Shown: piece by piece, positions 1,870-34,432 of the stretch | Layout: the number at the start of each line of letters is the position of its first letter | How positions within the stretch are numbered: the first letter of the stretch is position 1 | Assembly (NCBI GenBank): GCA_964016885.1 | Contig: OZ024742.1 | Location: 41,292,001-41,356,000 of the forward strand | Length of the DNA: 64,000 nucleotides | Direction of reading: 5' to 3' | DNA from: Eledone cirrhosa | Taxonomy: Eukaryota | Notes under the pieces: generated by a model | Database searches by the model: none | What the model saw: only the letters and a program-made list of their open reading frames with translations | Told to the model about the DNA's origin: nothing | Translations under genes and position numbers: made by a program

Positions 1870-4800
1870 ACAATCACCATCCTCATCATTAATTTATGTC
1901 GGCTTTGCAATCTGGCATGGGTTGACAGGTCTTTGTAGTCAGAGACTAGATGAGTCAGAAAACCACATCTTGCTCAGATGTTCCATATTTTGGCATGGTT
2001 TCTATGCTCTTCCTAATGCCAAACACTTTACAGAGTATACTGGGTGCACAATATTGTGGCACCAGCACTAAAGGGCTTGTTATGTACTTGACAAGTGTGA
2101 AGTGTCCTCTCTACCCTATAGTCTCCATTCACTTGTCAACCAATTTACAGAGTGTATGAGATTCATTTTATTGTGGCACTTGGTATAACTAAAAAGTTCT
2201 CTCTACTCTATATTGTCTCCATCTGATTGGTTGTTACTAAATTCACTAGCCAACTTCATTAACCATTTCTCTAAGGTATTCAGCAACACTAAAGTTTAAA
2301 TGAAATTCATAAAGGTAATGAAAACCAACTCAGCCTGGAAATATGCAATATTCACAATCTATTTACATCACACATTTTACAGGAGCACTACAGTTGTCTT
2401 TCTAACATATATTGACTACTGCCTTTAATCATTTTCTTACCATATTTCTAATGAAAGACACTATGTTTAATTTTTTTAAATAATCAAGAATTTGAAAGGG
2501 TTTAGTAATATAACTAACTTTTCCCATTATTAACCTGGTACTTGGAATGTAAAGATTCTTACATAAAATTATGATGGAAGGATTTTAGATAGATACTAGA
2601 CCTCCTGTGACCCTTTGGGTCATGTTCACTTAAAAATATTTTTTTAAATCATGTTCATTTAAAAATAATTTTTAAATAATTAAAATATACACATACATGT
2701 ATATTATGTGAAATGAAACTGGAAGACCCATATATATGTGCATGTATGTATATATATATAAATGTGTATGTGTGTGTCTGTGATCTATATACACTGGTCA
2801 TAGACTCACACACATATATATGCACAACACCACCAGCTCTCTTTCTTCCATTCTCCTGTCTCTTCTTCCTCTCTCTGTCTCTCTTTCAATCTACTCTCTC
2901 ACAACCACTATCTTTTTCTATCTATCTTTCTCTCTCTCTGTTTATGAAGGTACCCGGAAAAACTCCATATCTCGGGAACCCGTGCTTCAATTTATGCGAA
3001 ACTTGTTTTATTCCATTTATATTCCCATTTCAGGGTCAACTTCCTTTCAAAGTATTTTCCCATTATGCGCCCTTTTGGCTGCAGACGAGCAAGCAAATAA
3101 TCAATCACAGACTTTTAGTAATATATAGATAGATAAACATTTTAAAATAAACACTTTCATATAGAATCAAAAGGGTTAACTTAATGCCTAGTTGTTTTCT
3201 CAGTTGACTTACTATCTGTCTTTCATGCAAGCTAGCACTGCACATTCAACAGATCATGCCTTCCCAAACATTTTATATCGCAAATCCGTTTTTTTTATTA
3301 AAGAAATTTGTTGTGAACTCCAGTTTGGTAAAAGAAATTTGTTGTGTTATTATTTGAAGAAAAAAAAATTCCGGCGTGGTGGTAATTAAATTTGTTTTTA
3401 AATGTATAATCCTGAGGTTTTATTTTTTGCAGGAAAAATTGCAATAACCATCAACTAATGATCCTAAAGCTAGAATATAAAATATAAATTTTCATTTGTG
3501 ACGGCCTGCACTTTGGGAAGGCCTGCAATAGATCATACTTAACTCATTTCTCTCCAGTCATCAAAGCTATATTATTCAATACTCATACTTCATAATGAAA
3601 TGTGACTAATACTGTATTGAAATAAGAGAAAAAAAATGAAATTTACAGCTCACACCTATGCAAGCCTCTTACGAGGTTGCACTTCATAGGTTTCTTGTCT
3701 TTTAAGTCCAGTCTTATCATGGAAAATGTGAAATGAATCATCTTGTTCAAGAAGATAACACACTCCATGGTCTAGCAATTGAATGAAGAAACTTATGAAT
3801 ACAGTCCAACACTAGGTTCCACCCCTTCACCCTGTATTGGTAGTAGTGTTTGAAAGTTTAAGAATTTTTTTAGTTGGTAAAATTTCAAGTAATATTATTA
3901 GAAAGTTATATTATTTTGCTAACATTTTTCAAACATAAATAATACTTAACTTGAGCATTTGTGAAGTTCAATACTATACTATAGCATTTATTATTAATAT
4001 TATAAGGTCATGGGTTTGATTTCTGGATTGGGTGACACATTGTGTTCTTGTGCAAGATGTTTCATTTCACAATGCTTTTCATGATAGGACTGGGACTCCA
4101 TAATCATTAAAACACTCTGAGGAATCTCCTGTGAGAAGCAACTTTATAGAAGGCCAACTAAACCTACATAAGCATGAGCTGTAAATTTCATTTAATTCAT
4201 TTCTATAATACTGTGCCATCAACCATAATAATATGCATGTGTGTTTGTATATATATATCATTACCATCATCTCCGTTTAACATCCATTTTTCTATGCTGC
4301 CATGTGTTAGACGAATTATCTTGTGAGCAATGCCAGGTCAGGTGACCAGGAATTGCTCATACAGAACCGATTTTGGTTTGGTTTCTACAGCCAACCTCAT
4401 TTAATGAATGCTGGGTGCTTTTTGTTGTGACGCCTATACACCCACTTTACAGTGTGGACTATGTGCTTTTTGCCGTGACACCTACACGACCACTTTACAA
4501 TGCATTTCTTATCTCAGTCATGTTCGCTTTTCAATCACAAGATCATAGGTTCTAATTTTACATTTGTCCCTGTAAGTAATTCTTTCTCTAAAGTTTACTT
4601 ACACATTTAACCCTATATGTCATTTGTATGTGTATGCTGAACATTTGTGTAAGTATATCCTAGAAATGAATTATTAAAATATCATTCTATCTTTAGTGGT
4701 CGTAGAGGTGGAGGTGCCACGGCAAAAAAGCACCCAGCCCACACTGTAAATGAGGTTGGTGTTAGGAAGGGCATCCAGCTGTAGAAATCAAGCCAGAATC

Positions 4801-6598: not shown

Positions 6599-7549
6599 TT
6601 AATAGTCAAGCCATTCTTTCATGTATACACATGAAGTCGGCGAGATGGCACCGTCCTCTGAACAGTGGTGGAAAACTGGGCAGGTTCCGCATGGCATTCT
6701 CATTAAACCGGTCGGCAGTATCAAAGGTTTGATAGCTCGATATAATTTAGTGTTGGTTCCAGAAGTACCGCTTGATGAACAAGGCCCAGCAACTATAGAA
6801 CGTTCTACCTTACCATCATAAATTAAAGTGTCCAAAATAGTTTCTATATCCTCAACAGCAAGCTTCACTTTACTGATACCAAGTTCAGATATATATTTCC
6901 AGACATCTGTCGAAGAAGCGAACGATGCGTTTCTCTGCATGATAGGTGCTGAAAGAGTTTCACGAGCATTAGCAGTTTTCTCGTTGAGGAATTTGAAGCA
7001 CTGTTGGTTAAGTACTTCGACGAATTCTGATTCAAAATCTTGATCACTATACCACGCACCTCCTGTCACTGATCGATCCGGTTCCAGTTCATAAAGCATA
7101 TAAACTTTCTTTTTTGAAGCCGCCACTGATTTAACAGCTTTTATAAGTTTCTTGCTTTCCAAGTTCTTTAATATTTTGTTGACTTGAGTTAGTAATAAAT
7201 TACTTTGATATCGTATATCACGAATCCATATACCTCGGTTACCAGCTTCCTTAATGATTTGGTAAACAACTTTTTCTTGGTTATCTGAACCTTTCACAAC
7301 ACTGACAGATGAGGGGTCTTTTAATTTGTATACTAATTTGTTACCACTTTTCAACAAGTCTATTCTGGCTGTGGATAGTAGCCGGTTAATAGCTTGGACT
7401 CTTTGTTTAGCATCAAATTGAGGCATATCGACAAGAATGGCACTGTCGTCAACCCCGTCCGGATTCTGTTTACATAATTCTAAAATTCTGGTTTCCAAGT
7501 CAACAGCTTCAACAGGTTCTTTTTTCACAATTGTCTCTTCTTCAGACAT
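6599..7549 (-). CDS. POLR3F: DNA-directed RNA polymerase III subunit RPC6 (RPC39/C34), single-exon CDS, 316 aa
   Basis: Uninterrupted ORF from ATG at 7549 (MSEEETIVKK...) to TAA at 6599. Motifs EKVVYQIIKEAGNRGIWIRDIR, KKLIKAVKSVAASKKKVYMLYELEPDRSVTGGAWYSDQDFESEFV, and the C-terminal Fe-S cysteines PCGTCPVFHHC...ISPTSCVYMKEWLDY. The 48 upstream in-frame codons in the ORF track begin at a non-ATG codon and are probably UTR. Confidence 0.97.
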   Translation of the reverse strand: MSEEETIVKKEPVEAVDLETRILELCKQNPDGVDDSAILVDMPQFDAKQRVQAINRLLSTARIDLLKSGNKLVYKLKDPSSVSVVKGSDNQEKVVYQIIKEAGNRGIWIRDIRYQSNLLLTQVNKILKNLESKKLIKAVKSVAASKKKVYMLYELEPDRSVTGGAWYSDQDFESEFVEVLNQQCFKFLNEKTANARETLSAPIMQRNASFASSTDVWKYISELGISKVKLAVEDIETILDTLIYDGKVERSIVAGPCSSSGTSGTNTKLYRAIKPLILPTGLMRMPCGTCPVFHHCSEDGAISPTSCVYMKEWLDY

Positions 7550-7884
7550 GCTTGTAATAAATCCAAACAGACTATAATTCAGGGAACTCTCTAAAGAAGA
7601 GTTACAATTATAGTAAAGCAGCACTACCCCAAAAGTAGTTCCCGTGTAAAATAATACCGTCTTATATGCAATTGTAAAAGCAAGCAATTCCAATAACTAT
7701 TTCGATTTAGAGGATATATATTTCATAACTTTTCGATTTATTTTTATTACATAACTGACGATGAAATAATATTTACTGATCAGATAGTAATTCAAACCAA
7801 ATATAAAAAAAAAAAAAGATATAACAAAGAAATTAAACGTGAAAAAAGTCTGAAAAGAATTGCTAACCATTGTTAGCAATTCTA

Positions 7885-16222: not shown

Positions 16223-19200
16223 GGCTATAACTTAGATTCATACCCAATATTATATGTGTGTGTGTGTATTGATATATATACTTTTGAAGATTCTCGATTA
16301 ATGATAAATCACTAATATTAATTTCTTACTCAGATACATTGATGACAATGCCAAGAGTTTTATTAAACGGCTTGGCACTGCTGTGGCCATACCTAGTGTG
16401 TCTGCATCTGTGGAACTAAGGCCAGAAGTTGTGAGAATGGTGGAATGGACAAAAAAAGTAAGAAAATTTTTTAAAATAATCTATACAATTGCTGCTGCTT
16501 CTTTTTCTTCCCTCTCTGGTAGTGCTAGTGCCACAATAAAATTCAACCAACCCACTCTGCACCTCGATAAGATGCACATAATACACACTGTAAAGTGGTC
16601 GGTGTTTGGCAGGGCAGCCAGTCCGAGAAACCATTGATTGTACTAGCAGGATGTGATCATCTGACTAGCCATAGCCTCAGAACATGGCAACCTGTTTAAT
16701 CTATGCCAGTATGGAAAACAGATACAAACTGGTGATGATGTTTATTGTGCCTTTATGTTGCTAAATTGTTCTTCTTCACCCACTTATTCCTGAGAGGGAG
16801 TCCTCAAACACTCCCTCCAGCGGGTCCTGTCTGAAGCAACCGTCTCCAACTGATCCGGCTGGATCTCCAAGCATGATCTGGATGATATCCAACCATTTTG
16901 CTTGGGGTCTACTACTGGGTCTCTTGCCGGTTGGTTTTTGCCTGTAAAATCTGTTCAGCGATTCTTTCCTGAGACATTCTAACCACATGCATAGTATCGG
17001 AGCTGTGATCTCTCAATTCGAAGAAGTAGCGGCTCTACCTGGAGTGACTCTCTGATCTCCAAGCTATGCACTTTATCGAGTAACGTTACTCCAAAGACCC
17101 TTTGGAGGAACTCAATTTATGCTGCTTGTATTCGCAATTGTATTCTTTCGGTCATTACCCAAATGTTAAAGTGTTTAAATGTAAAAGTGTAATGTTGTGT
17201 TTTATATTTATTTGAAAGGAAATGGAAAAACTTAATATTCATGTTGAATTAATGGATCTTGGAGAACATGTCCACTCAACCTCAACAACACTCAAAATAC
17301 CGCCTGTTATTTTTGGACAACTTGGTAGTAATCCTGAGAAGAAAACCTTGTTAGTTTACGGACATCTTGATGTACAGCCAGCTTATATGGTTTGTGACTA
17401 ATTTTATTTAAATCTTTTCTGATACTAACCTGCCCCAAACTGCCTCTGGTTCTATGGAACAAAACCACCCATTTTAAAATGTTTCTATTTCAGTTAAAAT
17501 CATCTAACATAATTTTACTTTTGTTTTGTTACAAATACCATCTTAATAATGAAATAATTGATAACTTTACTAAATCCTTCAAAATTCTTCAGTAATTCAA
17601 ATACACTGTATTTTATTAGAAATGTGGTAATGACGGGTTAGATATATATTTTAAAATTTCATTTAATATTGGATTTTATTCTTCTGTTCTAAGGGCAGAT
17701 ATTTTGTTGACGCAGTCACATGTTCTTAGGAGAAAATTAGGTTTGTTTACCCAGTACACTTTGTGTATCTGTTAGAGAGATAGAGGAAGAAATAGTGAAA
17801 TATAAGAGAGGGAGACTTTACAAGTCAGATGGGAGGAAAGAGAAGCTGTCACATTTATATCTTTGTCTCATCCATCTTTGTGACTGTTGTTTCACTCCTG
17901 TCTATTTTAGGGATATCAAAGTTCTAGCTAAGGTTCACTTATTGAATTACAGAATCTGCCAGCTCATAAGATGCAAGAAGTGAAATTTTATTGTTATATG
18001 ATATCTAACCCATGCTAGCATGGAAGAGCGGACGTAAAACGGTGATGATGATGATCCTATAATTTTTCTTTAACTCTTTTGATACCAAACCACCTGAAAC
18101 TGCTCTAAAAATTCGAAAATACAACACTGTTTATTTTAAAGTATTTATATTTATCTAAAAACTTTGTCATAATTTTATGTAAGAACCTTTGGTAAGTTAT
18201 GTACCAAACACCAGCTTAATAATGAGAAAGTTAGTTATATTACTAAATAGGGTTTGAGAAGTCTCTTCAGTCTGGATGAGAATGTGATAACCTCTCTAAT
18301 GCTACAATAAAATGCACCCAGTCCACTCCATAAAGAGGTAATTCTGGTGCCACAAAAAACACACCCAATAAGGGGGTTACCACTGCGAAAGGCATTCATC
18401 AGTAGAAACTATGCAAAATATGGATCATAATGAGCAAGATAAAGTCATTCCAACCCGTCTGGCCTTGGACTGTGATAATCCTTCCAAGCCAAGCCAGCAT
18501 GGAAAGCGGATGTAAAATGATGAGTGAAAAATAGGCTAATGTGACCCATACAGATTCTCTCTTTGATTTATAACTTTGTTGTTTAAAAATAAAATTAATT
18601 TCTAATTTCTTTTCTCTTTATTAGTCTGATGGTTGGGATACTGAACCTTTTGTTTTAACTGAGAAGGATGGCAAGTTATATGGTAGAGGATCAACTGATG
18701 ATAAGGTAAGTTTAATGTCTGAGTACTTAATTTCTAGTTAATGTAATCCGTTAGATACAAAACTGAAACTGCCCTTGGTTCTATGATATAAAAATACTTC
18801 ATAAATCTATCCATCATAATTTTATGTGAGAAATTTTTGTTTAGTAATGTTCCAAACATCAGCAGACTTATGAAAAAGTCATTTTTTAAAACTTACTTGC
18901 TATATTTGGAGATGGTCTTTTTAAAAATTAATTGCTATATTTGGAGATGGCCATGTGGCCATAAAAAACATACACTATTTGACTTTCACTTAAGCTTTAT
19001 TATTATTATGAGTTGTTGGTTATTTTGTCAAAGCTCTTTTGTCACATTCTGTGACCCCCCTCAATCACTATTTGCTCTTCTTTCTGGCAATAGCGTAGTT
19101 AGGGGGGGGGGTTATGGAGGCAGCACTTTTGGGTCTGTTGTAGGCTATAAGCATTCTTTTAATGCTGCAGCATATTATAATTGTACACAACATATATATA

Positions 19201-21038
19201 TATATAGCTTTAAGAGTGAGTCACTGACCAATATGTATTTTTTATGGGGGCCTGGGGGCAGCAAACTGAATGGCTGCCCTGGGTGGCACACACTCTAGTT
19301 ATGTCACTGCTTTCTGATCTTATTCTGTTTACTTCATCTTGTCTTAGTAAATAGAAGACCAGAAAGAAGAGACACAGAGAAGAACAAATAGTCATTGAAG
19401 TGGTCATAGAATGTGTGACAAAAATGCTTTGTCAAAATAACTAAGAACTTATAATAATAAAGCTGAAAGGAAAGTCAAATAGTGTGTTTTTATTGGCAAA
19501 TTGGCAACATGATCTTCCCCAAATATAACAATATCTGTTTCAACACAATTTCATCATCATCATCACCGTTTTACGTCCGTTCTTCCATGCTAGCATGGGT
19601 TAGACGGGTTGTCCTGTTGTGGGCAGTGTCTGGTCGGCTGACCATGCCTTGCTCATACAGGAACTGATTTTGGCTTGATTTCTACAGCTGGATGCCCTTC
19701 CTAACACCAACCTCATTTACAGTGAGTGCTGGGTGCTTTTTCCGTGGCGCCTACACGTCAACTTTACAGTGTGGGCTGGGTGCTTTTTTGCTGTGGCACC
19801 TCCACGACCACCTTGCAGTGGGAGGGTGTGGGGGCATTTCACATCAATAATCTTGCAAAACAAATACATAAATGTATTTTAATAATAAATTGCTCCAAAA
19901 TTTTCATTATCAGAAAAGTTAATAGGCAGTATATTTCATTAAGAATATGGTAAGAAAAGAGTTAAAAGTTAAATTCTTTCTCTATAACTCACTGGACAAG
20001 CGCTTTTATCTCAAGCCTATATATATATAATGTTAAGAGTGATGAGAAGTTTAGTTTTAGTGATATTCCCACCAAAGTTCATTATTTGAATTGTCTAGAG
20101 CAGAGGTTCTCAAACTTTTTGGGCCAGCATCCTTACCCCTATTTCCAGAGAGACCTGCCTACACACAAATTGTAAATAATATATAATAAATAAAATCATT
20201 AATTTATATATAATAAATAATATAATATATACTATGTATAAATAATTATTATATATTTTTTATTTTACTATATTTATATATAATATGATGATGATTGATA
20301 TTTAATATACTATTATATCCTATGTATACAATACTATAATAATATAAATAAATTCATAGCATTCCCTAATCCACTGCCAAAAAAGAGACCTTTCTACATA
20401 CGCAAATATATTCTTACTCAATAAAAAAAATGCACAAATTTACAACAGATATTGGATAAGTTAATAGTATACCACTAAAACAACCCATCCAGATAGGTTT
20501 ATAGCGAGGGGGTTCAATGAGAAGGATGTGTTTAGTGAAGTGAAAGAAGCCTCTCAGTCTCAGGCTGAATTGTACTAAGAATAAATCTGAAATCTCCACA
20601 CTGTAATTCAGAGCTTTTACCACTGCTTTGTAAGAAGGTGAGTGACCGCACTGAATCCTCTCTCAACCATATATGATGTTGGAAAGGCAATGAAGAACAA
20701 TTTGACTCTCTTCCAAAGCTCCAGATAGTGGTCACTGATAGCCTTTTGAAGCCAAAATTCTTGATGGCACTTGCGGAATTTTGGAATGTCATTTTGAAGA
20801 GTTACCAGCCCTTCCTCTAACTCTCCACTCTCTTCTTCAACCTATGTTAATGAAGGGGTTGACAATCCATTCAGGAACTCAAAGAACAAACAAATCATGA
20901 AATCATTACTCCATATCTCCGTGCAGTTCAGTTCAGCTGCTTTGGGTGGACAATATTGGAATAAAAATTGTTTTGGATTTCTTTAAAATGCCTGTTGACT
21001 AATTTGAAAGGCACTTCAAAGCGCCTCGTATATACTTT

Positions 21039-21081
<43 letters not shown>

Positions 21082-21953
21082 ACATACATATATGCGCACA
21101 CACACACGTGTGTTGAAAAGTTTATATCTTATTCCTTGAGTTTTGATAAATGAAATTATTAACATTAATTAAAACATAATATTTATGATGACAAAACATA
21201 ATTAAACAATTAGCTAGAATATTTTTTTAAAAGAATTAAGATACACATTTACCTGCGTTCATTCTTTGGCCACTTCAACAGCAGCTTCAGTCGATTCAGG
21301 CCAATTTGAAATATATTCATGACTTGGATTACTGTCTGTGCTAACGAAGGATTGTAAAAACTCAAAAAACCAAAGCAGTTGCTAAAATGTTTGTTTATCA
21401 GTGAAGACTTTGGCTGAAACAACACTTCCAAATGGAATAAAAGTCTGTATGAGGTCTTGATCACTGAAATGTTCCTTAGACTTTAAATGTAATAGAGTGA
21501 AAGAATGGAGAGAGATTCTTCTATGAAGAGGTCCAAAGTTCATATCTCTCACACACACATACACCAACAAGAAAGAAATATGCAAAGAGAGAGAGGGGGA
21601 GAATGAGTTAGAAAGAGATAGACAAGAGAAAGAGAGAGTGAAATTTTTATAACAGCTGGAAGTTACAACTGACCCGTTACACCCCCATCAGTGGTCACTC
21701 TCTCTCTTATGTGAACCTAATACTAACACTTTGTGCTGCACTCTTCATTATTGTTTTTGTTTTCTGTTTTAACTTATATATATATTGCAAGAGAGAGTAA
21801 GAGAGAAATTTAACAGGTCAGCTCAACAGTACTGTTTCCACTCAAAGATAGTTCAATTCCTTGACTGGTGATGTGTGTGTGTGTGTATGTCTATATATAT
21901 ATATATCATCATCATCATCTTCGTTTAACGTCCATCTTCCATGCCAGCATGGG

Positions 21954-21998
<45 letters not shown>

Positions 21999-24900
21999 TA
22001 TATATCACACACACACACAAATGCCACAACCATCTGTGTATGTAGAAACATTTTAATGACTCAAGCAATTAGATAGCAATCTGTTGTCTCTAAAGTTGAA
22101 AAAATTTGATGAATCCGGCCCTGGGTAAAATGTTAAGTAGAATGTGAAAGAAAGCGAGACAAGTTTCACACTGGGTGGAATGACACTTGCATCCTTTCTG
22201 TTCTTCCCAACTCCCCCTTTTTCTCTACCGCCCTCTTAGGCCCCACTTTGAGAACGTCTGGTCTGGAGCATTCTTCTTTTTTAGTTAAGACAAACCACGA
22301 CAGAATAAAATTATATGAAAAGTAGTTTGTGTAATCATGTGCATCCAGTTTAAAATAGGTACACCATATCCCTGTATGTTGTAAGAGATAACTAAAAGAG
22401 TTGGCACCAGGAAAGGCATCTGGCTATACAATATTGCCCCTCCATGTGTATGATTAAACCTGTTGGGGGGGGGGGGCTTTGACACTAACCCTTGATGTTA
22501 TGTGGTGGCAGCGGTGGTGATGGTGATAATTATGATGATGATTATTGGAGGCACATGGCTTAGTGGTTAGAGCATTGGGCTTGTAATTGAAAGGTTGTGA
22601 GTTCAATTCTCAGACCGGGTGATGTGTTGTTTCCTTGAGCAAGACACTTTATTTCACATTGCTCCAGTTTACTCAGTGCTAGAAATGAGATGATAGGGAC
22701 TGGGGTCCATATCACTCCACTGCAAAGTGGTCGTAGAGGTGCCATGGCAAAAAACCCCCCAGAACTCACTGTAAATGAGGTTGGTGTTAGGAAGGGCATC
22801 CAGCCATAGAAAACCTGCCAAACAGTCCCATACGAGCAAGACAACCAATCTTGCCTCAAATGGGACAATTCCCGTCTAAACCCATGCTAGCATGGAAGAT
22901 AGACGTTAAACGATGATGATGATGATGATCCAGCTGTAACAATCAAGCCAGAATCAGTTCCCGACCCACCCTTGCAAGCAGGCAAAAGTCGACGTAAAAT
23001 GGTGATGATGATGATTACTATTATTTCTTTATCCTTTCAGGGACCAGTCCTAGGTTGGCTAAATACTATTGAAGCATTTCAGAACCAGAAAATTGACATT
23101 CCTCTCAATTTAAAAGTAAGAGATAACTTTTATTTCATATTCTAATTCATCATGTGTAATGTGAAAGCTTGTGGCCTAGTGGTTAGTGTTGAACTCTGAA
23201 TCATGATTTCATGGGTTCGATTCTGGGACTGGGCAGCACATTTTATTTTTGAGCAAGATGCTTCATTCCATATTGCTTTTCTTAATAAAACTGGGGCTCC
23301 TATCATTAAAGCACCTAAGAAACCTTCCATGAGATGCAACCTTGTAAGAGACCAATTAACCTGCATACGTATGAGCTGTAAATTTCAGTAGTGAATGTAC
23401 GTGGCCTTGTGGTTAGGGTGTTGGACTCACATTCTTAAGATTGTTGATTTGATTCCTGGAGTAGCAGCATATTGTGGTTTTGAACACGACATGTTGTTTC
23501 ACATTACTTTTCATAATATGACTGGGAGCTCTATCATTAAAACACTCAAGAGAACTCCTATGAGATGTAACCACATAGGATGTCATTAGAATTGGCCTTA
23601 AAATACTTGTTTGTTGAGGCCTTAAAACCTAAATGTATCTACATTTGATTCTTAATAACTATTGTGTATTTATTTCCAGTTTGTGTTTGAAGGTATGGAA
23701 GAATCTGATTCTGTTGGCCTTGATAAACTGCTCATGGATAAGAAGGATTCTTTTTTGAAGGTAAAGAGATCGTTTTATATTATTTTTCATAAATAAAGTA
23801 CTAGTCCAGTAACAGAGTTGTTGTGCTTCTTCTCTTCCTCCTATTAAAATATTGCAACTTTAATCACTTCCATTTTGTCAGTAATTAACATAAGCTATAA
23901 GATTTCTCTTATATAAACCATTAATTTATCAAAATGTAAATTTCCTTGTTTGTATGATTGTTCATATATCTGGTAACCCTAGATAGTGCCCCTGTGACTC
24001 TATCAGGACTCATGGGTGAATAGACTTGGTCAAGGTGCCAGCAGTAGAATTGAACCTAAAACCATATTGTTCTGAAGCAAACATCTTAACCACACAGCCA
24101 TGCTTATACTTGTATTTACATCAACTGCTGAAACTGTATTTGGCCATTTATCTTCTCCCCATTGAAATATAGACCAAGATGGCGACAAGGAAGGTCGCTT
24201 GACCACGTCTTGACCAAACAAAATATAATATTTTCACCAAAAACTGCCCTTTAAACACATGTCAGATGGATTACAATATTCATTATTACAATTACTCTGA
24301 CTGTTCCCTGACAACTAGTACCAGCTTCAACATAGAATTATTTTAACGAAGTATATTTAATTTGTCTTGATTTTCGCCAACAAACCATGTGTGGACATGG
24401 ACGGGGAAAAAGGGGAAAAAAAACAAATCACTACATCCCTTAGGGATCGCAGTAAGTACTTCACAAAACATATAAACAACAATATACACACAGATTTATA
24501 TACAGATATATACCATATGCATATACACACGCGTGAAAAGAAACCACACTATTTCGTGTGAGACACTATACCGGCCAATCTTACGTACATTGGTAAAATA
24601 TCTCTGAACATTGACTTCGCTTCTAACCCACATGCACCTTTTAATTATATATATATACTAGCAGCTGAAAGTTAATAACTTGAAAAATATTATTGAAAGT
24701 TTATTATAAAGAAGCAGTATCAGGAAAAAAAAACGTTATTTCGCTGTTAATAATCTGTTGCCTTCTACAGTACGTTTCATTTAACTTACGCAGCATATTT
24801 ATTTGGTTACATGCACAGACTCTTCTGTACACACACAACATTTAGGAAAACGGAAACAAAATACACAAAAACAACAAAACAAAAAACAGACATTTTATTT

Positions 24901-27900
24901 CTATCGTAATCAAGTGCACTAAACCTATATTGTTTACATTCTGTGTTTTTCTACGGATGGGTAGAAATAACAAAATTGCCATGGTGATATCCATCGATGA
25001 AGTATGCAACAAAACTGGTCGATGTTCCAAAATAGAACATTGCCCAGAAAACCACATTTGCCATATCTGTGCGAAACCCGAAAACTCGTTCCGTAATCGC
25101 TGGGTCGAATGTGGAACCTGTCGCATATCTGTCTGCTTTCAATGCGCCACAGGCTTCCGGAAGGTCCCAGGCCCAAAAAAGAGACATCATAATGCTATGA
25201 TGGATGGAATCTGGGAGATGGTCCAGCTAAAATCCTGGTCCTTTCAGTGCCTGGCCTGTGTGCCTGCCTCCAGTTGAAAAACAACAACAAAAAAAACTAA
25301 TGACTATTTTCCTCTACCATTGTTACTGAACAACGGCAAAAACCTATGACACTGGCTTCTACTGCTATTCCTGTGGGAGAACATCAGAAACAACAACAAC
25401 CCATGTCTTCCGCTCCCAGTACGTCTCGACACCAACAACCTGCGACTGTGTCTTCCCCTACCATTCCCGTGGAGGAACATCATCACCACCAACAACAGCA
25501 GCAACAACAACAACCGACCAGTACAGATTTTGCAGAATTGCAACTAATGATTTCTGCTTTAAGAAGGGAAGTAACAGGAATAAAGGCAAGCATTCGGGTA
25601 GGACCCCACAATGAGGGGTCTTATCGGAATGCCTTGCTAAAGAATCTCCCTGTACCTCTTGCCGTATCTGGCCACACTGAAAAGACTGCAGAATCTGCTA
25701 CCCATGAAGTGATTGCCATTGGGGTACCAGAGGGCAAGGCTGATCTTCAGGCATTTGCTGCCAGCTCAGCCAAGGCTGTGTTCCCCCAAAGGGTGCTCTC
25801 CGCCTTGGTCGACCTGGTCCAAAACCCATACTCATCGGGCTGTCTTTTTCGGACCCTCGCTGAGGCAACCTCATACCATCTGGCCTCTGTTAAAGCTGGG
25901 CGTGAAAATCGGATTACCTTCCGAACACGCCCAGGCCTACCACCCCATGTACGTCCAAAGCTCCGTGCTGCAGCTTCCTTGAATCGGAATTCAGCACAAC
26001 ATGAAAGTTTTAGTCTGCGTGATGATGGGCAGATCTGGAGGTTTGTCAAGGCTGGTGAAACGTGGAAGAGAGATACCAGCTGGTCTGAGTGTGATCTACC
26101 CACAATAACTGGCAATGTAAAAACTGCTACAACTCTGGGAAACTAAACCAGAACAACCTGCCACCCTCTACACACCATCATAAACTGTGAGCAGGGTACA
26201 AATTGTTGTCCTTAAATGCTCGCAGTTTATGCAACAAGATATATCTGTTTGAATCCTACGTCAGAAGCATCGACCCTGACTTCATCACAGAAACATGGGC
26301 ACATTCCTTACTCTGTGATGGGGTTTTCAGCATTACTGGGTACAAGCTTTTCCGCAAGGGCCGCATTAATCGCCGTGGTGGTGGTGTGATGGTCTACGTT
26401 CGTTCAAACTTTTCGGTAATTCCTTGCGTTGATTTGAACGAATCACAGGAAGAAGTTTTTTTTCTGTGACATACGTATGACCATGTCAACACTTCTGCTT
26501 GGTGTTGTTTATCGCCCCCCAAACTACCATCAGGACACACAGCTTTGCGATATCCTCAGAGTTGCTGCCAAGAAAACAGCCACTTATGTGTTTATTGCAG
26601 GTGACTTCAATCATCCTGAGATCGATTGGGAAACCTTTCGTTGGCCACAAGGTGCAAACGATTTCCTTGAACTAGTGCTGGACTCAAACTGGTCACAAGT
26701 AGTCACCTCTCCAACAAGAGGTGACAACACTTTGGACCTGATCTTCACCACTACTGAAGTGGTTATCAGTTGTACTACTGAGGAACCTCTAGGTGACACT
26801 GATCATGCTATGATCATTGCCAATCTGGCACTTGAGGGCAGCAACAAAAACCAGAGCCATCTCCAATCTGCTTGCTTTGATTGGAAGAGAGCGGATTGGA
26901 ACTTGTACTGCACTGAGCTACAGCGCCCAAACTGGCATGAGATGTATAACTCCGGAGATGTGAACACTATACTCCAGAGCATCCTGGACTCAATATGGAT
27001 AGCGTGTGCAGCATCGGTGCCACGTAAGCGGAAAAATAACCACCCCAAAAGTGCAATTTGGGAAACTTCAGCGGTCCGACTTGCCAGGAAAGAACATCGG
27101 AACGCTGAACGGGAATATAAACTGCATAAATCAGATGCCAACAGAAAAATGCGGAATAAATCTTCTAACCATCTCAAGCAAGTGACAAAGAAGGCAGTGC
27201 TTGAATTTGAACAGTGCATAGCAACCAATCCTGACGGTAATGTGTTCTGGAAATATGTTCATTCAAAGCAGAGACCTCACTCTCCAGTTCATCCTCTTCG
27301 CAATCCCCACACAAGCCAGATCACTGACGATCCCAAAGAATGCACAGAACTCATTGCTGAGTGCTATGCAAGTATTTTTACTGTTGAAAACCAGAATGTA
27401 CCATCTCCACCATCTCTAACATCAAATTCCATAACAACTATGGAATTTACACCTGCAATGTTGCGACGTCACCTTAAGAATAAGCGCAACTATGCCTCCC
27501 CTGGTCTTGATGGTGTTACATACCTGCTTCTCAAACGTGGCGAGTATTTCCTTTTGCACCAGCTTTCTTTCTTCTTTCAATACCGTCTCAACAATGGTGC
27601 TACTCCGGAGCAGTGGAAAACTGCCAGTGTCATTCCCCTGTTCAAAAAGGGCAACCGCATGTCACCTGTCAACTATCGTCCAGTCAGTCTTACTAGCTGT
27701 ATGGCCAAACTGATGGAATCCTGTGTCAGAGAAACACTTTGGAACTTCTGGAGCTCTCACAGTTTGGATTTATCCCTAACTCCAGCTGCTCTGATCAGCT
27801 TATCGAGTTCCTTGAAGACATCACCCGGATCACTGACAGCGGCTCATGGGTGGATGTTGTTTACCTTGACTTTGCTAAGGCTTTTAATTCTGTGCCACAC

Positions 27901-30900
27901 AAAAGACTTATGGCAAAACACTCTGCAATGGGTGTGAAGGATGATCTTTTCGACTGGTTGAAATCCTTCATTTTCAGCCGAAAAGAAGTAGTCACGGTTC
28001 TAGGACAGCATTCTTCACCACATGAGATGTCATCTGGTGTACCACAGGGATCTGTTCTTGGTCCCCTTTTGTTTGTGGCATATATTAATGACATAGATGC
28101 CAACTTACAGAATGCCACGGTACTGAAATATGCAGATGACATCAAGCTGTACCTTGAAATCAAAAGGACTGATCCTGAAATTTACAACTCTTTCCTACAA
28201 TCAGACCTGGACACAATGCAGCAATGGATCACAGACTGGCAACTGAAGCTGGCTGTGGACAAGTGTACCAACATGCATTTTGGGAGGAAAAATCCAGCGT
28301 CCACATACTCCCGCCACAACACTGATATCAAGAAGTCCTCTTGTGAACGTCACCTGGGAATTACTGTCAGCAGCGATTTGCGTTGGACAAAGCATGTCTC
28401 TAAGATTGTCAAGAAGGCCGAGGGTGTCTTGGCATCACTCAGCAAGACCTTTGTTAGCCGCTCTCCAGCCATCTATTTAAAACTGTATACAGCTATGGTA
28501 CAACCACACTTGGAATTCGCATCATCAGTCTGGAACCCTTATCTTGCTCAGAACATTGACCTCCTGGAAACTGTTCAGAGACGTGCAACCAAGCGCATAC
28601 CCTCCATCAGACACCTACCATACTCTGAACGCCTTGCTTCCCTGGGCATGGATTCATTGAAGCTCCGACGTCTGGCAATGGACTTGGTGAATACCCACAA
28701 AGTTATTAACCATCTCGCCAATTGCAACCCTGAGCACCCTTTTGATCTCCATGTGTCTAACACACGTGGACATGCCTACAAGATCAGAAAACAACACAGC
28801 TCCCATGACTTTCGTAGACATTTTTTCACGCTCAGAGTTGCTGAAGCATGGAACAAACTGCTTGCGTCAGTTGTTAGCTGCCGAGACACTGCATCCTTTA
28901 AGACACTCATGCTTCCCGAAATACGCCAAGGCTACACCTGATGTACCCCTTCCATACACATGCACACGTGTGTATCATGACTCGTGCACTGTTCATTTTA
29001 CTGATGTTTGTGCATTGCCCTATGTACTGTACATGCACTTTTTGATGAGTTGTGGTGCACCTGGGCACTGTACACAATATTTTATTATTATTATTATTAT
29101 ATCATGACTCCTACACTGTTCATTTTCCTGACATTTGTACATTATTCTATGTACTATACATGCATCTTTGATGAGTTGTAGTGCACCTGAGCACTGTACA
29201 CAATAATTTCATTATTATTATTATACCAATCGTGGACCCTAAAAACGAAATATGTTCACCACTACTCAGTCATTATTGATGGTATGGGTCCACTAGTGGA
29301 ATGTATCGTCTTACTTTAATTTCCTAAATAATTCAAAAAAAGAATATGAGATGTCATTGATATCTTTCTTTTCAGATTTTTCTAAAGATATTTCTGTTCT
29401 TTTACAGGACGTTGATTATGTTTGTATCTCTGACAATTACTGGCTTGGTAAGAATAAACCATGTTTGACTTATGGACTTCGGTAAGAAAGATAACAATTC
29501 CAAATTTATATTCTTTTACATATTCATGACCTGTGTCATTATATTTATTAAGATAAAATTTATAACTTTGTGTTTAAACATAAATGTATTACTGACTATC
29601 TTGAGATGGACCTATCAGTTAGTGCTATTTCAAAGATAAATAAATCACTGCTTTCATTCGGATCATAACCCTTTTGATACTAAACTTCCTGAAACCACCC
29701 CAGGTTCTACTATACAGAAGTACTTTTTTTTAAGTGTTAAATTTATCTAAAAACCTTTCATCATATTTTTATGTAAACATCTGTCATTAAAAATATGATA
29801 ATTAACCCTTTAGCATTTAAACCGGCCAAAATTCTCTCACCTCTTTCTGTTCAAATTGGTTGTAACTGGCCATTCATACTTATGTTAAGGTATTTTTCTC
29901 AAAATGAATAATATCAAAATCTCATATATTCAATATTATGTGAGGAAAAGCCTTTACCATGAAAATATAATAGTAAATATAGAATAATATAAATGCTAAA
30001 GTGTTAAAGAGTTACTAAAATTAGTATGTTTTAATCATCTTCTTTATTTTAAAAATTAAGGAATAATCTCAATAAAATAACATGTTTTAATGAAATTGAG
30101 TGAATAATATAATAGTCGTGATCATAGGGTTAAGGGTTCAATTCTTTGACGGAGTGCCACATTGTGTTATTAAGTTGCTTCATTTCATGTTGATTTTCAT
30201 TAAAATAGCCAAGATACCTCTGGGATGCAATCTCAGAGAAGGCCAGCTAAACCAGTGTAGGTGTGAGCTGTAAAGGGTACACTGTTAATATTTAAGCTTC
30301 ATAATCAGGAAAAATGTATAGATTACACATTAATTATTATGGTAATTGTGTAAAGACAATAGGTTGACACAGATGTCAGTAGTTGTGCTTTATACACTCT
30401 TGCCTGGGGATTCAAGATTGAGTTCAAATCCCATCTGAATTAATTGGCATATGATGGACCCTCCAGATTTTTAATTAACTGACTGTTTGACTTGTGAATT
30501 AAAGTGTAAATAGTTGATATCCAACAGACATGTGATGTGTACCTTTAGCATAATTATCTAACAGAATCAGTGTGACAGAGTATGTGACAAGGCTGGACCT
30601 TTTGAATTTAAGGTACAATTCATCCAACAGGTTTCCACACTTCTCCAAATTGAGAGATCACACACTTGGAGATTCAGCCAGATCAGTTGGAGACAGTTAT
30701 TTCTGATAGGACCCACTGGAAAGAGTGTTTGAGGACTCTGTGCCTATAAACCTCTTAGGAATAAGTGGGCGAAGAAGGTTTCCACACAGTGGAATTGATC
30801 GCAAAACCTCATGATTTGGAAGCAGACTTCTTAACCCTCAGCTATGCCTACATCCAGTATTTCAATATAAAATCATTGTTGCCACCCTAGGACCTAATAT

Positions 30901-33900
30901 GGTGAAATTTCACATAGCAATGATGTTGATACCATAACACATTGTTTAGGGAAAATGTTATCACTATCAGATCAAAATCTGGAAACATTTTTGACTAAAG
31001 AAAATATGAATATTTGGACCTTCATATTATTTCTAGAAGAATCAGTGATGTAAATAAAATGAAATGATTAGAACTAGAAACCAAAACCAAATTGTAGAAA
31101 CAATTTACAGCTTTTTAGCTCTATAATGAATACCACAAACTGTATTGTAAAACGTTTTTTTTTTTTTTTTAACCATTTCATTTCCATATTCCTAATGAAA
31201 AATACACCAATGAAGAATTTGGAGGATTTGCTAAAATTATTAATTTTTTCATTATTAAAAGAGTATCTGTAATATAACAAAGGATTTTTATATGGAATAA
31301 TTTTGGTAAGTTTTCATTTAAATAAAGGGTTCTTATTTAAATCAAAACTTTCAAAAATAATTCTCTATAAAAATATTCTCATAGAACCAGAGTTGGTTTT
31401 GGATGTGTTAATACAAATGAAAGATACATGTGCCTGTGTTTTCAGATTAAATAGCTGCTTATTTGTTTATTCTATTACTAGTGTCACTCATTAGACTGCA
31501 GCTATGTTAGGGTACTGCCTTTATACATACATACATCTGTCTGTCTGTCTCAGGATAGTAGACGTATTTCATATCGGCTCTGCGATTTGGGATTTTTACC
31601 TGCTATTTTTGTGAGTGAATTATTTGAATTATTTTTATTATTGACTCTAACCCCTAGTCTGGGACTTTAGACGTAGGGTAATTATATTTTCACCCCTTTT
31701 GGGGTGAAAAATAATTAATTCAAAAATGTTTATCGATATCGTTGATAACGATATCGTCGAAAACGATATCGCCATATTGGAAGCGAATGCCACGCCTACC
31801 AAAAAAACAAGCGGGAAAGAGGAAACAACAGTTCAAACTGTTGAACAGCCCCTCCTCTCCAATGAAAAAAAAAAGATTATTAATTCAAATGAAAAACTTA
31901 ATTTTGAAGAAAAAAATAACACCACAAATAAGGACTCGATGGTCTGCCCTACGAACTATATATTAATATGCCGGACTTGTTCCCCGATCTCCTCGAGGTG
32001 GTCTACTGCAACTGGCAACAGAACGGGAGAATTCCCTGTTCTGTGACCAAGGGCGTAGTCTCGCTAGTGAGGAAGGACGAGAACAAGGGGGATGACATTA
32101 GTAATTTTAGGCCCATAACTCTGCTAAATGCAGAGTTAAAGATTTTGGCGAAGAGGTTGGCGCTTGTCGTGGGGGGCCTGGTGGGAGATGCGCAGACATG
32201 CGCCATCCCGTCCAGGTCCATCCACGACAACCTCCACCTCATGCGATACATCATAGAGAGGGTTGGGAACGAACCCGGCTTTGGTGGGGCCCTGATAAAT
32301 TTAGATTAGTCTAAAGCGTTCGATAGGGTGGACCATGGTTACTTGGATGCGGTGCTAGCGGCGGCTGGGTTCGGACCCGTTTTCAGGGGCTGGATCACTG
32401 CCATGCACAGTAGCCGCATCTGCTCTAGAGTCAAGGTGAACGGCTACCTTTCGGAGCCGTTCGAAATCGCCCGCTCCATCCGACATGGATGCCCTCTCTC
32501 CTCCCTTCTGTATGTATTGGCTCTCGAGCCACTACTGCGGAAGTTGGAGTTGTTGCAGGGCATCCCTTTGGAACCGGGATTGCGCAAAGCGGTGTCGGTC
32601 TATGCCGATGACGTAACAGTAATGGTGTCGACCACCTCGGAAATCGAGGCAATCGGCACCTTACTGGAGGAGTACGAAAGGTTGACAGGGGCTAAGCTGA
32701 ACCGGGACAAGTCAATCGCTTTGCAACTCGGTGAGTGGAGGGGCAAAGCGATGTCGTGCGACGGTATCGTCGGACGGTGGACGGAGGGCCCGGTGAAGTT
32801 GCTTGGGGTCTGGTTCGGACCGGACCTCCAGGTTGAGAAGAACTGGGGTGAGGTGACGAATAGGGTGTTTGCACCGACCCAGAAGTGGGCCGAGTGCAAA
32901 CTATCCCTGAAAGCTCGGGCGGAGGTGGCGAACGCTTACATAGCGTCCGTCATCTATTACCGCTTGACTGTCGTGCCTTGCCCGGGTGAGATCCTCGCCA
33001 AAATGGAGCGCGCCCTCTTTTATTTCCTTTGGAAGAAGAGGTCTCCTCTGGTGAGGAGATCCATCTGCTGTCAACACCCTTTGAAAGGAGGGCTGGGGAT
33101 GCCGTGGCTAAAAATGCGTAAACACGCATTGAGGCTAAGGCACCTCCAGGTATTCCTCACCGGTCAACCGGTGTGGGCCCCGTTTGTGAGGCGAGCCTTC
33201 CCGAGGCTCGTCTCGCTCACCGAGCTGCAGTCCTGGGTGAAGCAAAGACCGAGAAAACTGGGCGACTGGCACACCAAGTGTGCCCAGGCGCTCACGGCTC
33301 TCTGGCAGGCGGACCCGGCTATCGACGGAGACTCCACCTCGTCATTCTATAGAGGGCTGGTGGTTAGCGGGTGCGACGATGCCCTCGGAGAAACCCTAGG
33401 CATGGAGGAGGATGAACTGGCCAGTCTATTCAGTAGGACTTTCGGCCCGGGACCTATGGACAACTTCCAGAAGTCCTTGGCCTGGCAGTGCTACCGAGGG
33501 GCTCTGCCCGTTCGGGATAAGCTCTACAGACACGGGCGCCCGGGTAGGGACCCCTCGAAAAAGATCTGTCCCAGATGCGTGCACGACAAGGAAACCGTCG
33601 CGCACACATTGGTGCACTGCCCGGGCGTTGCCGATCTGTGGGGCTATGTCGAACAACTGCTGTCACGGGTGGGACCAATTAGGTTGACCACCGAGTCCAT
33701 TGTAATGATCAAGCCGCCTCCCCCCTTCAAAAATGAAGGAGAGGCGGTCTTCCTCTGTGTAATAGCCATGGTAAAAGAGGTTATATGGTGGACGCGGCTG
33801 AAAGGGCTGAGGTCGGACACCTTTCTCTCCGGCCAACAACTGGTCCTTTTCTTCCGATACCATTTTGGAAGAAGGATCAGGATGGAGAGAGAGGTGCTCC

Positions 33901-34432
33901 ACTCCAGCCAGTTTTATGAAAGGTGGGTGAAAGTTGCGAGAATGGCCTGTGTGAATGGGCCTTCTCTCTACCTCAGCCTGTAGGTGGAACAGGAAGAAGG
34001 GAGCACCCTCTCTTTGTGCTCCCGTGGAGAAGGGTCGCACACTTTTTTTCGGGAGTGTGTGTGACCCCAAAACGATCCCTCCCTATTGAGGACCTTCTTG
34101 TTACTATTTTGTTTGTTATATTTTTCTTACTCGATTTTTTATGTAAACTCCCCCCACCCATGTACATGTCCCTTTCTTTTGTGCCCTAGTGGCAAATAAA
34201 CAGAAATTTGTCTGTCTGTCTCTGTCTGTCTGTCTCTCTCTGTCTGTTTCTCTCTTTCCCTCTTTCTCTCTCTCTGTCTCTCTCTGTCTGTTTCTCTCTT
34301 TCCCTCTTTCTCTCTCTCTGTCTCTCTCTCTGTCTCTCTCTGTCTCTCTCTCCCTCTTTCCTTCTTTCTCTCTCTCCCTCTTTCCTTCTTTCTCTCTCTC
34401 CCTCTCTCTCTCTTTCTCTCTCTTTCTCTCTC

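What the first reader, a model, noticed from the sequence alone, without database searches (positions are those of the whole stretch)
20101..22260. Charlie-type hAT transposon carrying a CELF/Bruno RRM3 gene fragment (Pack-hAT candidate)
Seen: TIRs (CAGAGGTTCTCAAA / TTTGAGAACGTCTG) and an 8-bp TSD (GTCTAGAG/GTCTGGAG) bound a 2160-bp unit in CNDP2 intron 4. On its minus strand, a frameshifted CELF RRM3 fragment (21253-~21505) lies upstream of the C-terminal part of a Charlie transposase (20514-20950), in the same orientation and where the missing N-terminal transposase sequence should be. Known: host-gene capture by DNA transposons is well described in plants (Pack-MULEs) and much less so for animal hATs; CELF proteins regulate neural and muscle RNA processing. 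Inference: this may be a mobile family that disperses an RNA-binding-domain fragment, or a one-off insertion into a resident transposon.
Basis: partly seen in the sequence, partly recalled or inferred. Interest (0 to 1): 0.75.

Follow-up and report, generated by a model that had tools for sequence, protein, structure and literature searches.

The report
One-off CELF mRNA patch in transposon
A 210-base, intron-free scrap of the RNA-binding gene CELF sits broken inside just one copy of a common DNA transposon, likely as an RNA-derived patch over a DNA break, so this is an ordinary retro-insertion and not a transposon family that spreads a host gene.

Summary
The unit is real: 14-bp TIRs and an 8-bp TSD (7/8) bound a 2160-bp non-autonomous Buster/Charlie-type hAT in a CNDP2 intron, antisense to the gene. 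Ten other two-ended copies have their own nnnTAnnn TSDs. The CELF piece is 21259-21468. It matches two exons of the CELF gene on contig C5 with the ~1.48-kb intron removed, so it derives from spliced RNA, not genomic DNA. Outside the gene it is single-copy (3 of 3 candidates), and 20 of 20 aligned sibling copies lack it. It has no TSD or poly(A), but a ~9-nt target deletion, a 1-nt overlap and 4 untemplated bases, the signature of a class-2 templated insertion. It is frameshifted, and 17 of 18 substitutions are non-synonymous. The transposase N-terminus was already lost subfamily-wide, replaced partly by a LINE ORF1 scrap. Whether this copy hopped once with the cargo is unresolved. One oddity: the insertion point is a recurrent breakpoint in siblings. 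The scan noted similar retrocopy-in-hAT cases (Ku70) elsewhere in this genome.

The parts
20093..20100 (.). left 8-bp target-site duplication (central TA)
   Evidence: 7/8 identical to the right copy
20101..20114 (+). terminal inverted repeat at the transposase 3' end
   Evidence: same TIR in other family copies
20115..20513 (-). hAT 3' subterminal region
   Evidence: shared with family copies
20514..20932 (-). decayed C-terminal remnant of a Buster/Charlie-type hAT transposase (from about aa 473 of a ~620-aa enzyme; stops and frameshifts)
   Evidence: tblastn to P0004; near-full-length copies L092 and L145 carry the rest
20933..21036 (-). subfamily filler A: scrap related to ORF1 (Myb/SANT-like N-terminus) of a LINE, joined to the transposase remnant
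   Evidence: 25 of 25 candidates scored, 14 other copies match most of it at 84-94%
21037..21254 (-). subfamily filler B: (TA)n plus an AT-rich stretch ending in a GTAAGT-like donor motif; left flank of the insertion
   Evidence: 22 of 22 candidates, 21 distinct loci including this one
21255..21258 (-). 4 untemplated bases at the 3' junction of the CELF piece
   Evidence: match neither the CELF gene nor the sibling sites
21259..21468 (-). spliced CELF cDNA fragment (most of RRM3, lacking the first strand/RNP2); exon junction between 21371 and 21370; 2-nt deletion near 21388
   Evidence: 94% and 86% to exons at G000:C5:15683063-15683164 and 15681471-15681581; spliced contig in run X4
21469..21700 (-). 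subfamily filler C, right flank of the insertion; 21497-21564 is also the end of an unrelated repeat family
21711..21786 (+). 76-bp piece of a young high-copy repeat, absent at this position in 5 of 5 siblings viewed
   Evidence: 885 candidates, 40 scored, many at 95-97%
22072..22246 (-). hAT 5' subterminal region
   Evidence: 41 matches; 40 of 77 candidates scored
22247..22260 (-). terminal inverted repeat at the transposase 5' end
22261..22268 (.). right 8-bp target-site duplication
18625..18705 (+). CNDP2-like coding exon upstream of the host intron
23041..23115 (+). CNDP2-like coding exon downstream of the host intron

Best explanation
A single copy of a multi-copy, non-autonomous Buster/Charlie-type hAT transposon holds a 210-nt spliced fragment of the host CELF gene, likely pasted in as a reverse-transcribed patch while a double-strand break inside the element was repaired by end joining. 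Shown: the fragment joins two CELF exons without their intron; it occurs once; siblings have the empty site; the junctions have no TSD or poly(A) but a ~9-nt target deletion, a 1-nt overlap and 4 untemplated bases; it has decayed without sign of selection. Inferred: a germline break at a fragile point, cDNA made in trans by one of the genome's many LINE or Penelope-type reverse transcriptases, and capture by NHEJ/MMEJ (endonuclease-independent, class-2 templated insertion). The transposase probably played no part in the capture, and the product is likely inert: it lacks RNP2, is frameshifted and lies antisense to CNDP2.
For: Splicing: two hits 1,482 bp apart on C5 meet at one window position; exon A in the gene is followed by a GT intron; a contig of run X4 reads across the same junction while contigs of X2 and X5 continue into the intron (table 7). 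Parent is C5, not the C13 paralogue (86% vs 75% on the 3' half). Single copy: 3 of 3 candidates at E up to 10; only the two genes, the window and two unrelated RRMs; junction 20-mer: 1 exact hit, 13 in all against 9 for the control; no other carrier among 256 fetched loci. Empty sites in 20 of 20 aligned siblings. Junction anatomy matches the class-2 definition in PMC5110952. Decay: 18 substitutions in 202 nt, 17 non-synonymous against 80% expected under neutrality (p=0.23), plus a 2-nt deletion. The same copy also holds a private young retroposon piece. Most animal Pack-TIRs are single-copy gap fills with small deletions and short microhomology (PMC8277862).
Against: The CELF piece is 8.9% diverged from its parent (95% CI 5.4-13.7%), more than this copy's terminal branch on the transposase side (0.030; Poisson p 0.0006-0.03 for 3-4.5%). 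Taken alone this suggests capture before the last move of the element. The copy looks mosaic, however: private substitutions are 13 of 697 on the transposase side and 25 of 476 on the CELF side (Fisher p=0.002), which removes most of the conflict. The two exon halves differ (4 of 98 vs 14 of 104, p=0.025, post hoc) and this is unexplained. The own-genome DNA search skips common words and the assembly may be incomplete, so a missed second copy cannot be fully excluded. RNA templating is inferred from intron loss: copying from an older, since-lost processed pseudogene would look the same.
Confidence: 0.78

Rival explanations
1. The patch was acquired at an earlier locus and the loaded element then moved once by cut-and-paste into CNDP2, leaving no donor copy: transposition after capture, but no amplification.
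For: CELF divergence (8.9%) exceeds the element's terminal branch on the transposase side; both ends are intact; this subfamily did amplify other foreign filler, a LINE ORF1 scrap. Cut-and-paste need not raise copy number (established knowledge).
Against: The CELF-bearing half carries 5% private substitutions, within reach of the CELF figure; the TSD and a TIR each have a mismatch; in primates 91 of 97 single-copy Pack-TIRs arose in place (PMC8277862).
Confidence: 0.2
2. DNA-level gap filling from a pre-existing processed CELF pseudogene, now deleted or missing from the assembly, with no RNA template at this break.
For: Would explain the excess divergence and the lack of poly(A); Thomas et al. 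treat TSD-less retrogenes in Helitrons as captures of pre-existing retrogenes (PMC4224331).
Against: No other CELF retrocopy was found by DNA or protein search.
Confidence: 0.12
3. One reading: a mobile Pack-hAT family that captured CELF DNA and disperses the RRM fragment.
For: Real TIRs and TSD; a family that was mobile (10 other two-ended copies); host sequence lies between the TIRs.
Against: One copy only; 20 of 20 aligned siblings are empty; the intron is missing; the fragment is broken.
Confidence: 0.03
4. Classical LINE target-primed retrocopy (class 1) whose TSD and tail have decayed.
For: Spliced, 5'-truncated, in a LINE-rich genome.
Against: It ends 13 nt before the stop codon, with no 3' UTR or A-tail, and the target lost ~9 nt instead of being duplicated; about 9% divergence is too little to erase both hallmarks.
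Confidence: 0.07

Closest known systems
Class 2 templated sequence insertions / endonuclease-independent retro-insertion (Onozawa and Aplan 2016, PMC5110952; parts 1-2 of 4 read)
   Same: Distant donor, spliced cDNA among known templates, size within the reported 73-414 bp, no TSD or poly(A), microdeletion, microhomology and untemplated bases
   Different: Described in human cells and polymorphisms; here an old germline event in an invertebrate, with a DNA transposon as the target
Single-copy animal Pack-TIRs made by transposition-independent gap filling (Tan et al. 2021, PMC8277862; abstract, passages and section 8 read)
   Same: One copy, internal breakpoints, small deletion, short microhomology, empty relatives; hAT examples exist (Pack-hAT-N8_XT)
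   Different: Their cargo is genomic DNA, often from nearby; they discarded intronless captures from multi-exon genes as retroduplicates, so this case falls outside their set
Retrogenes nested in bat Helitrons (Thomas et al. 2014, PMC4224331; passages seen)
   Same: mRNA-derived sequence inside a DNA transposon, with empty-site relatives
   Different: Those were amplified after insertion (four cases, 118 copies) and carry poly(A) and TSDs; this one is single-copy and has neither
Buster (Charlie) group hAT elements (PMC3942097 and PMC12637253; passages seen)
   Same: 14-16-bp TIRs, 8-bp TSD, ~600-680-aa BED/DDE-type transposase in full-length relatives; central TA in all TSDs (that Buster rule is recalled)
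   Different: This copy is a non-autonomous deletion derivative with a filler made of retroelement scraps

Membership tests
hAT superfamily, Buster/Charlie group | Short TIRs (10-25 bp) shared across copies | tested here: met
   14-bp TIR in this copy and 10 other two-ended copies
hAT superfamily, Buster/Charlie group | 8-bp TSD, different at each locus, with central TA | tested here: met
   11 of 11 family TSD pairs have TA at positions 4-5; nnnTAnnn as a Buster trait is recalled, one search confirms only that target choice separates Ac and Buster
hAT superfamily, Buster/Charlie group | Transposase placed in the Buster clade | tested here: inconclusive
   44-60% identity to the unnamed 638-aa P0004, whose BED-finger, DDE and CxxH motifs I recognise from recall; Pfam gave no hAT hit; no tree against named Buster proteins was built
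Multicopy Pack-TIR (Pack-MULE-like) | Two or more loci with the same cargo and different TSDs | tested here: not met
   1 locus; 20 of 20 aligned siblings empty
Multicopy Pack-TIR (Pack-MULE-like) | Cargo copied from genomic DNA (introns kept) | tested here: not met
   1,482-bp intron absent
Single-copy Pack-TIR (Tan et al.) | Non-TE host sequence between intact TIR ends, with small deletion and microhomology | tested here: met
Single-copy Pack-TIR (Tan et al.) | Not an intronless copy of a multi-exon gene | tested here: not met
   crosses an exon junction; exclusion rule seen
Single-copy Pack-TIR (Tan et al.) | Orthologous empty element in an outgroup species | not testable with these tools
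   G000 has no relatives in the genome tool
Class 2 templated insertion | No TSD and no poly(A) | tested here: met
Class 2 templated insertion | Microdeletion, microhomology or untemplated bases at junctions | tested here: met
   ~9-nt loss, 1-nt overlap, 4 untemplated nt; a 1-nt overlap alone is no more than chance
Class 2 templated insertion | Intact donor at a distant locus | tested here: met
   CELF exons on contig C5, element on C3
Class 2 templated insertion | RNA, not an older retrocopy, was the direct template | tested here: inconclusive
   spliced, and no other retrocopy found, but a lost intermediate cannot be excluded
Class 1 (LINE target-primed) retrocopy | TSD plus poly(A) or tail | tested here: not met

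The most novel reading that the evidence does not exclude
This hAT subfamily carries a position-specific break site, next to a splice-donor-like motif, that is repaired one-sidedly and traps reverse-transcribed RNA. Four distinct deletions in 7 of 20 siblings and the CELF patch all start within about 3 nt of each other (rough p about 5e-4). The subfamily has already spread a LINE ORF1 scrap. It would be a cut-and-paste element acting as a recurrent cDNA trap, able to carry spliced host fragments onward, and this copy may have hopped once with its CELF cargo.
Probability: 0.15. Interest if true: 0.5.

Novelty: new member of a known kind. Interest (0 to 1): 0.2.

Why it matters
As it stands it is a clean invertebrate germline example of a spliced-cDNA patch with end-joining junctions, readable because 20 sibling transposon copies preserve the empty site. 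It is the kind of case that the one animal-wide Pack-TIR survey filtered out. It gives no evidence of a new gene or of a transposon dispersing an RNA-binding domain. If the shared breakpoint is a true fragile site, the family would offer a natural replicate series for how breaks in DNA transposons are repaired and how RNA-derived cargo enters TIR elements.

Tried and rejected
Other loaded copies: sought by DNA, protein, junction pattern and BLAST of all fetched loci (180, 256); none found. C13 CELF paralogue as donor: rejected, 75% vs 86% on the 3' half. RNA-editing trace: no A-to-G change among the 18 substitutions. Exonisation into CNDP2: the splice-like signals around the piece are on the minus strand and CNDP2 is on the plus strand. 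Subfamily filler as a captured host gene, which would have made a true multicopy Pack-hAT: followed up and rejected for filler A, whose relatives are a LINE ORF1 in hundreds of copies (688 candidates, 150 scored; endonuclease-like ORF downstream; Myb_DNA-bind_4 below cut-off). The origin of filler B is still unknown. Long family copies as carriers of other host genes: the ORFs seen looked like retroelement or simple-repeat frames; the output was cut and these were not screened against families. Rfam on 20000-22400: 10 weak hits, all below gathering score, on microsatellites. Expression: no RNA holder listed, which is no evidence either way. Organism B (run X5) has no contig cover over 21245-21379; a hole proves nothing. 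Only 21110-21545 was laid against sequencing runs, so the element's ends and the CELF gene's exon-B acceptor were not checked in reads. Literature searches for a prior report of this element or of cDNA capture by hATs (listings only) showed none; some searches were background searches. No supplements were read; the case tables of Tan et al. might list octopod entries.
Full report
Observation. The TIR pair (20101-20114, 22247-22260) and the 8-bp TSD (7/8) are at the stated coordinates. A scan of the whole window with the same criteria gives 4 such pairs, so the pattern needed support from other copies. The window lies at G000:C3:41292001-41356000 in a 3.0-Gb genome; earlier scan notes call it octopus-like, which I did not test. 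The transposase side gave 47 matches (40 of 95 candidates scored) and the other end 41 matches (40 of 77 scored). Among the loci fetched, 12 units have both TIRs and a matching TSD: this one, 10 other family copies of 312-5670 bp and 1 related-family element. All 11 family TSDs have a central TA. The remnant at 20514-20932 aligns to aa 473-499 and 519-588 of a 638-aa unnamed protein, and near-full-length decayed copies exist (L092, L145). I call it Buster/Charlie-type from TIR, TSD and recalled motifs; Pfam gave no hAT hit. The host is a CNDP2-like gene on the plus strand, so the element and its CELF piece are antisense to it.

The CELF piece is spliced. Window 21259-21468 matches G000:C5:15683063-15683164 (94%) and C5:15681471-15681581 (86%), which meet at one position in the window and lie 1,482 bp apart in the gene. 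The parent exon is CELF1/2-type RRM3 (PDB 2cpz, 2my7, E about 1e-25). The paralogue on C13 is only 75% identical on the 3' half. In run X4, a contig of depth 408 runs from exon A directly into exon-B sequence as the window does, while contigs of X2 and X5 continue into the intron. X4 is not on record as RNA; I infer a transcript from the splice. The piece starts 44 nt into exon A, after the RNP2 strand, and ends 13 nt before the stop codon. It carries a 2-nt deletion and 18 substitutions in 202 nt compared (6 nt at the junction left out because the assembly is doubtful there). Of these 17 are non-synonymous against 80% expected without selection (p=0.23).

It is single-copy. A DNA search with the piece alone returned 3 of 3 candidates: the window and the two exons. 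Protein searches with each exon returned only the two CELF genes, the window and two unrelated RRM hits. The 20-mer over the 5' junction has 1 exact hit; with 2 mismatches there are 13 hits against 9 for the control, and the 9 others fetched share nothing else with the unit. The left flank search scored 22 of 22 candidates, 21 distinct loci. I aligned 19 of the 20 others (L175 left out, its match stops before the site) plus L088. None of these 20 has CELF sequence, nor has any other of 256 fetched loci. Contigs of X1 and X2, one sample, span both junctions without differences.

Junctions. Against the most similar empty site (L176 type), about 9 nt of the element are lost, the 5' junction has a 1-nt overlap and the 3' junction has 4 bases found in neither partner. 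There is no TSD and no A-tail. This is the class-2 templated-insertion pattern described by Onozawa and Aplan, where spliced cDNAs are among the templates (PMC5110952). The mechanism I favour is a break inside the resident element patched by end joining with a reverse-transcribed CELF fragment. The break, the reverse transcriptase and the repair route are inferred; splicing, single copy and junction form are shown.

The missing transposase is a separate, older event. Copies of this subfamily leave the transposase at the same point, 20932, whereas L092, L145 and L146 continue in transposase. The CELF piece sits about 325 bp away inside a shared filler. Filler A (20933-21036) is related to ORF1 of a LINE with a Myb/SANT-like start, present in hundreds of copies. 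Part of filler C is the end of another repeat. So the subfamily did amplify foreign sequence, but retroelement scraps and not host genes. This copy later gained a 76-bp piece of a young repeat as well.

Results against my reading. CELF divergence is 8.9% (95% CI 5.4-13.7%). The copy is 7.5% from the subfamily majority but only 7.4-8.3% from two neighbours on C3, with a terminal branch of 0.030; 18 changes are unlikely at 3-4.5% (p 0.0006-0.03). The copy appears mosaic, with 13 private changes in 697 sites on the transposase side and 25 in 476 on the CELF side (p=0.002; one of the two neighbours lacks the filler, which inflates the contrast). That largely reconciles the ages, but I cannot tell whether capture came before or after arrival in CNDP2. 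The uneven divergence of the two exon halves (4 of 98, 14 of 104; p=0.025) is unexplained. No related genome was available for the orthologue test.

An oddity. Relative to an intact sibling, 6 distinct deletions of 20 nt or more occur in about 240 nt. Four of them, seen in 7 of 20 copies, begin 6-8 nt into the same donor-like motif, where the CELF patch also begins, and a fifth spans it (L164 grouped with L169 and L171 by eye). A rough chance estimate is 5e-4. It assumes independent events, and the copies were found with the left flank. Tan et al. invoke internal fragile sites for single-copy Pack-TIRs; this may be one.

Comparison and verdict. It works like a class-2 templated insertion landing in a transposon, and resembles single-copy Pack-TIRs, but it is not a member of that set as defined, because intronless captures were excluded. 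Retrogenes nested in DNA transposons are known from bat Helitrons, where they were amplified (PMC4224331). Earlier scan notes describe a Ku70 retrocopy in a hAT about 1 Mb away (e1-9562698, e1-8816641). I confirmed only that a more distant hAT transposase (26-36% to P0004) lies there. Verdict: real feature, known kind, no dispersal of the RRM fragment; interest 0.2.

Noticed in passing
window 21245-21275 and siblings L158, L159, L164, L166, L168, L169, L171: Four distinct deletion junctions in 7 of 20 sibling copies begin within 3 nt of the CELF insertion point, beside a conserved minus-strand GTAAGT donor-like motif.
   Followed up: partly
G000:C5 ~15681575-15681590 (L025): The assembled CELF exon-B start lacks an AG acceptor and differs from the spliced contig of run X4; likely a local assembly error.
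   Followed up: partly
L154, L155, L259-L265 (C1:244.78M, C3:262.85M, C3:239.1M, C4:78.0-78.3M, C4:237.8-238.0M): Other family copies carry a longer LINE ORF1 scrap; in L154 and L155 it is joined to the transposase at a second junction, read in frame in L132.
   Followed up: partly
window 20101-22260: The element looks mosaic: its transposase half groups with two neighbours on contig C3, its 5' half does not.
   Followed up: partly
window 6599-7696 (-): Uninterrupted 365-aa frame for RNA polymerase III subunit Rpc34/POLR3F (Pfam E 7e-99), upstream of and opposite to CNDP2; intronless, possibly a retrogene (introns in other animals recalled, not checked).
   Followed up: no
window 3255-3525: 271-bp hAT-like MITE with 14-bp TIRs and an 8-bp TSD (7/8).
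   Followed up: no
window 21711-21786: 76-bp tail of a young repeat (885 candidates, many at 95-97%) inserted in this hAT copy.
   Followed up: partly
window 26438-28941, 31932-33983, 48299-49270: Three LINE-like remnants inside CNDP2 introns (endonuclease, RT, zf-RVT, PHD hits).
   Followed up: no
L285, L286, L290 and many more: A very young, high-copy LINE family whose ORF1 begins with a Myb/SANT-like domain and a Q-rich tract (688 candidates).
   Followed up: partly
L145 (C2:388.56M) and L092 (C1696): Near-full-length family copies have a splice-acceptor-like site just before the transposase ATG, suggesting a 5' UTR intron.
   Followed up: no
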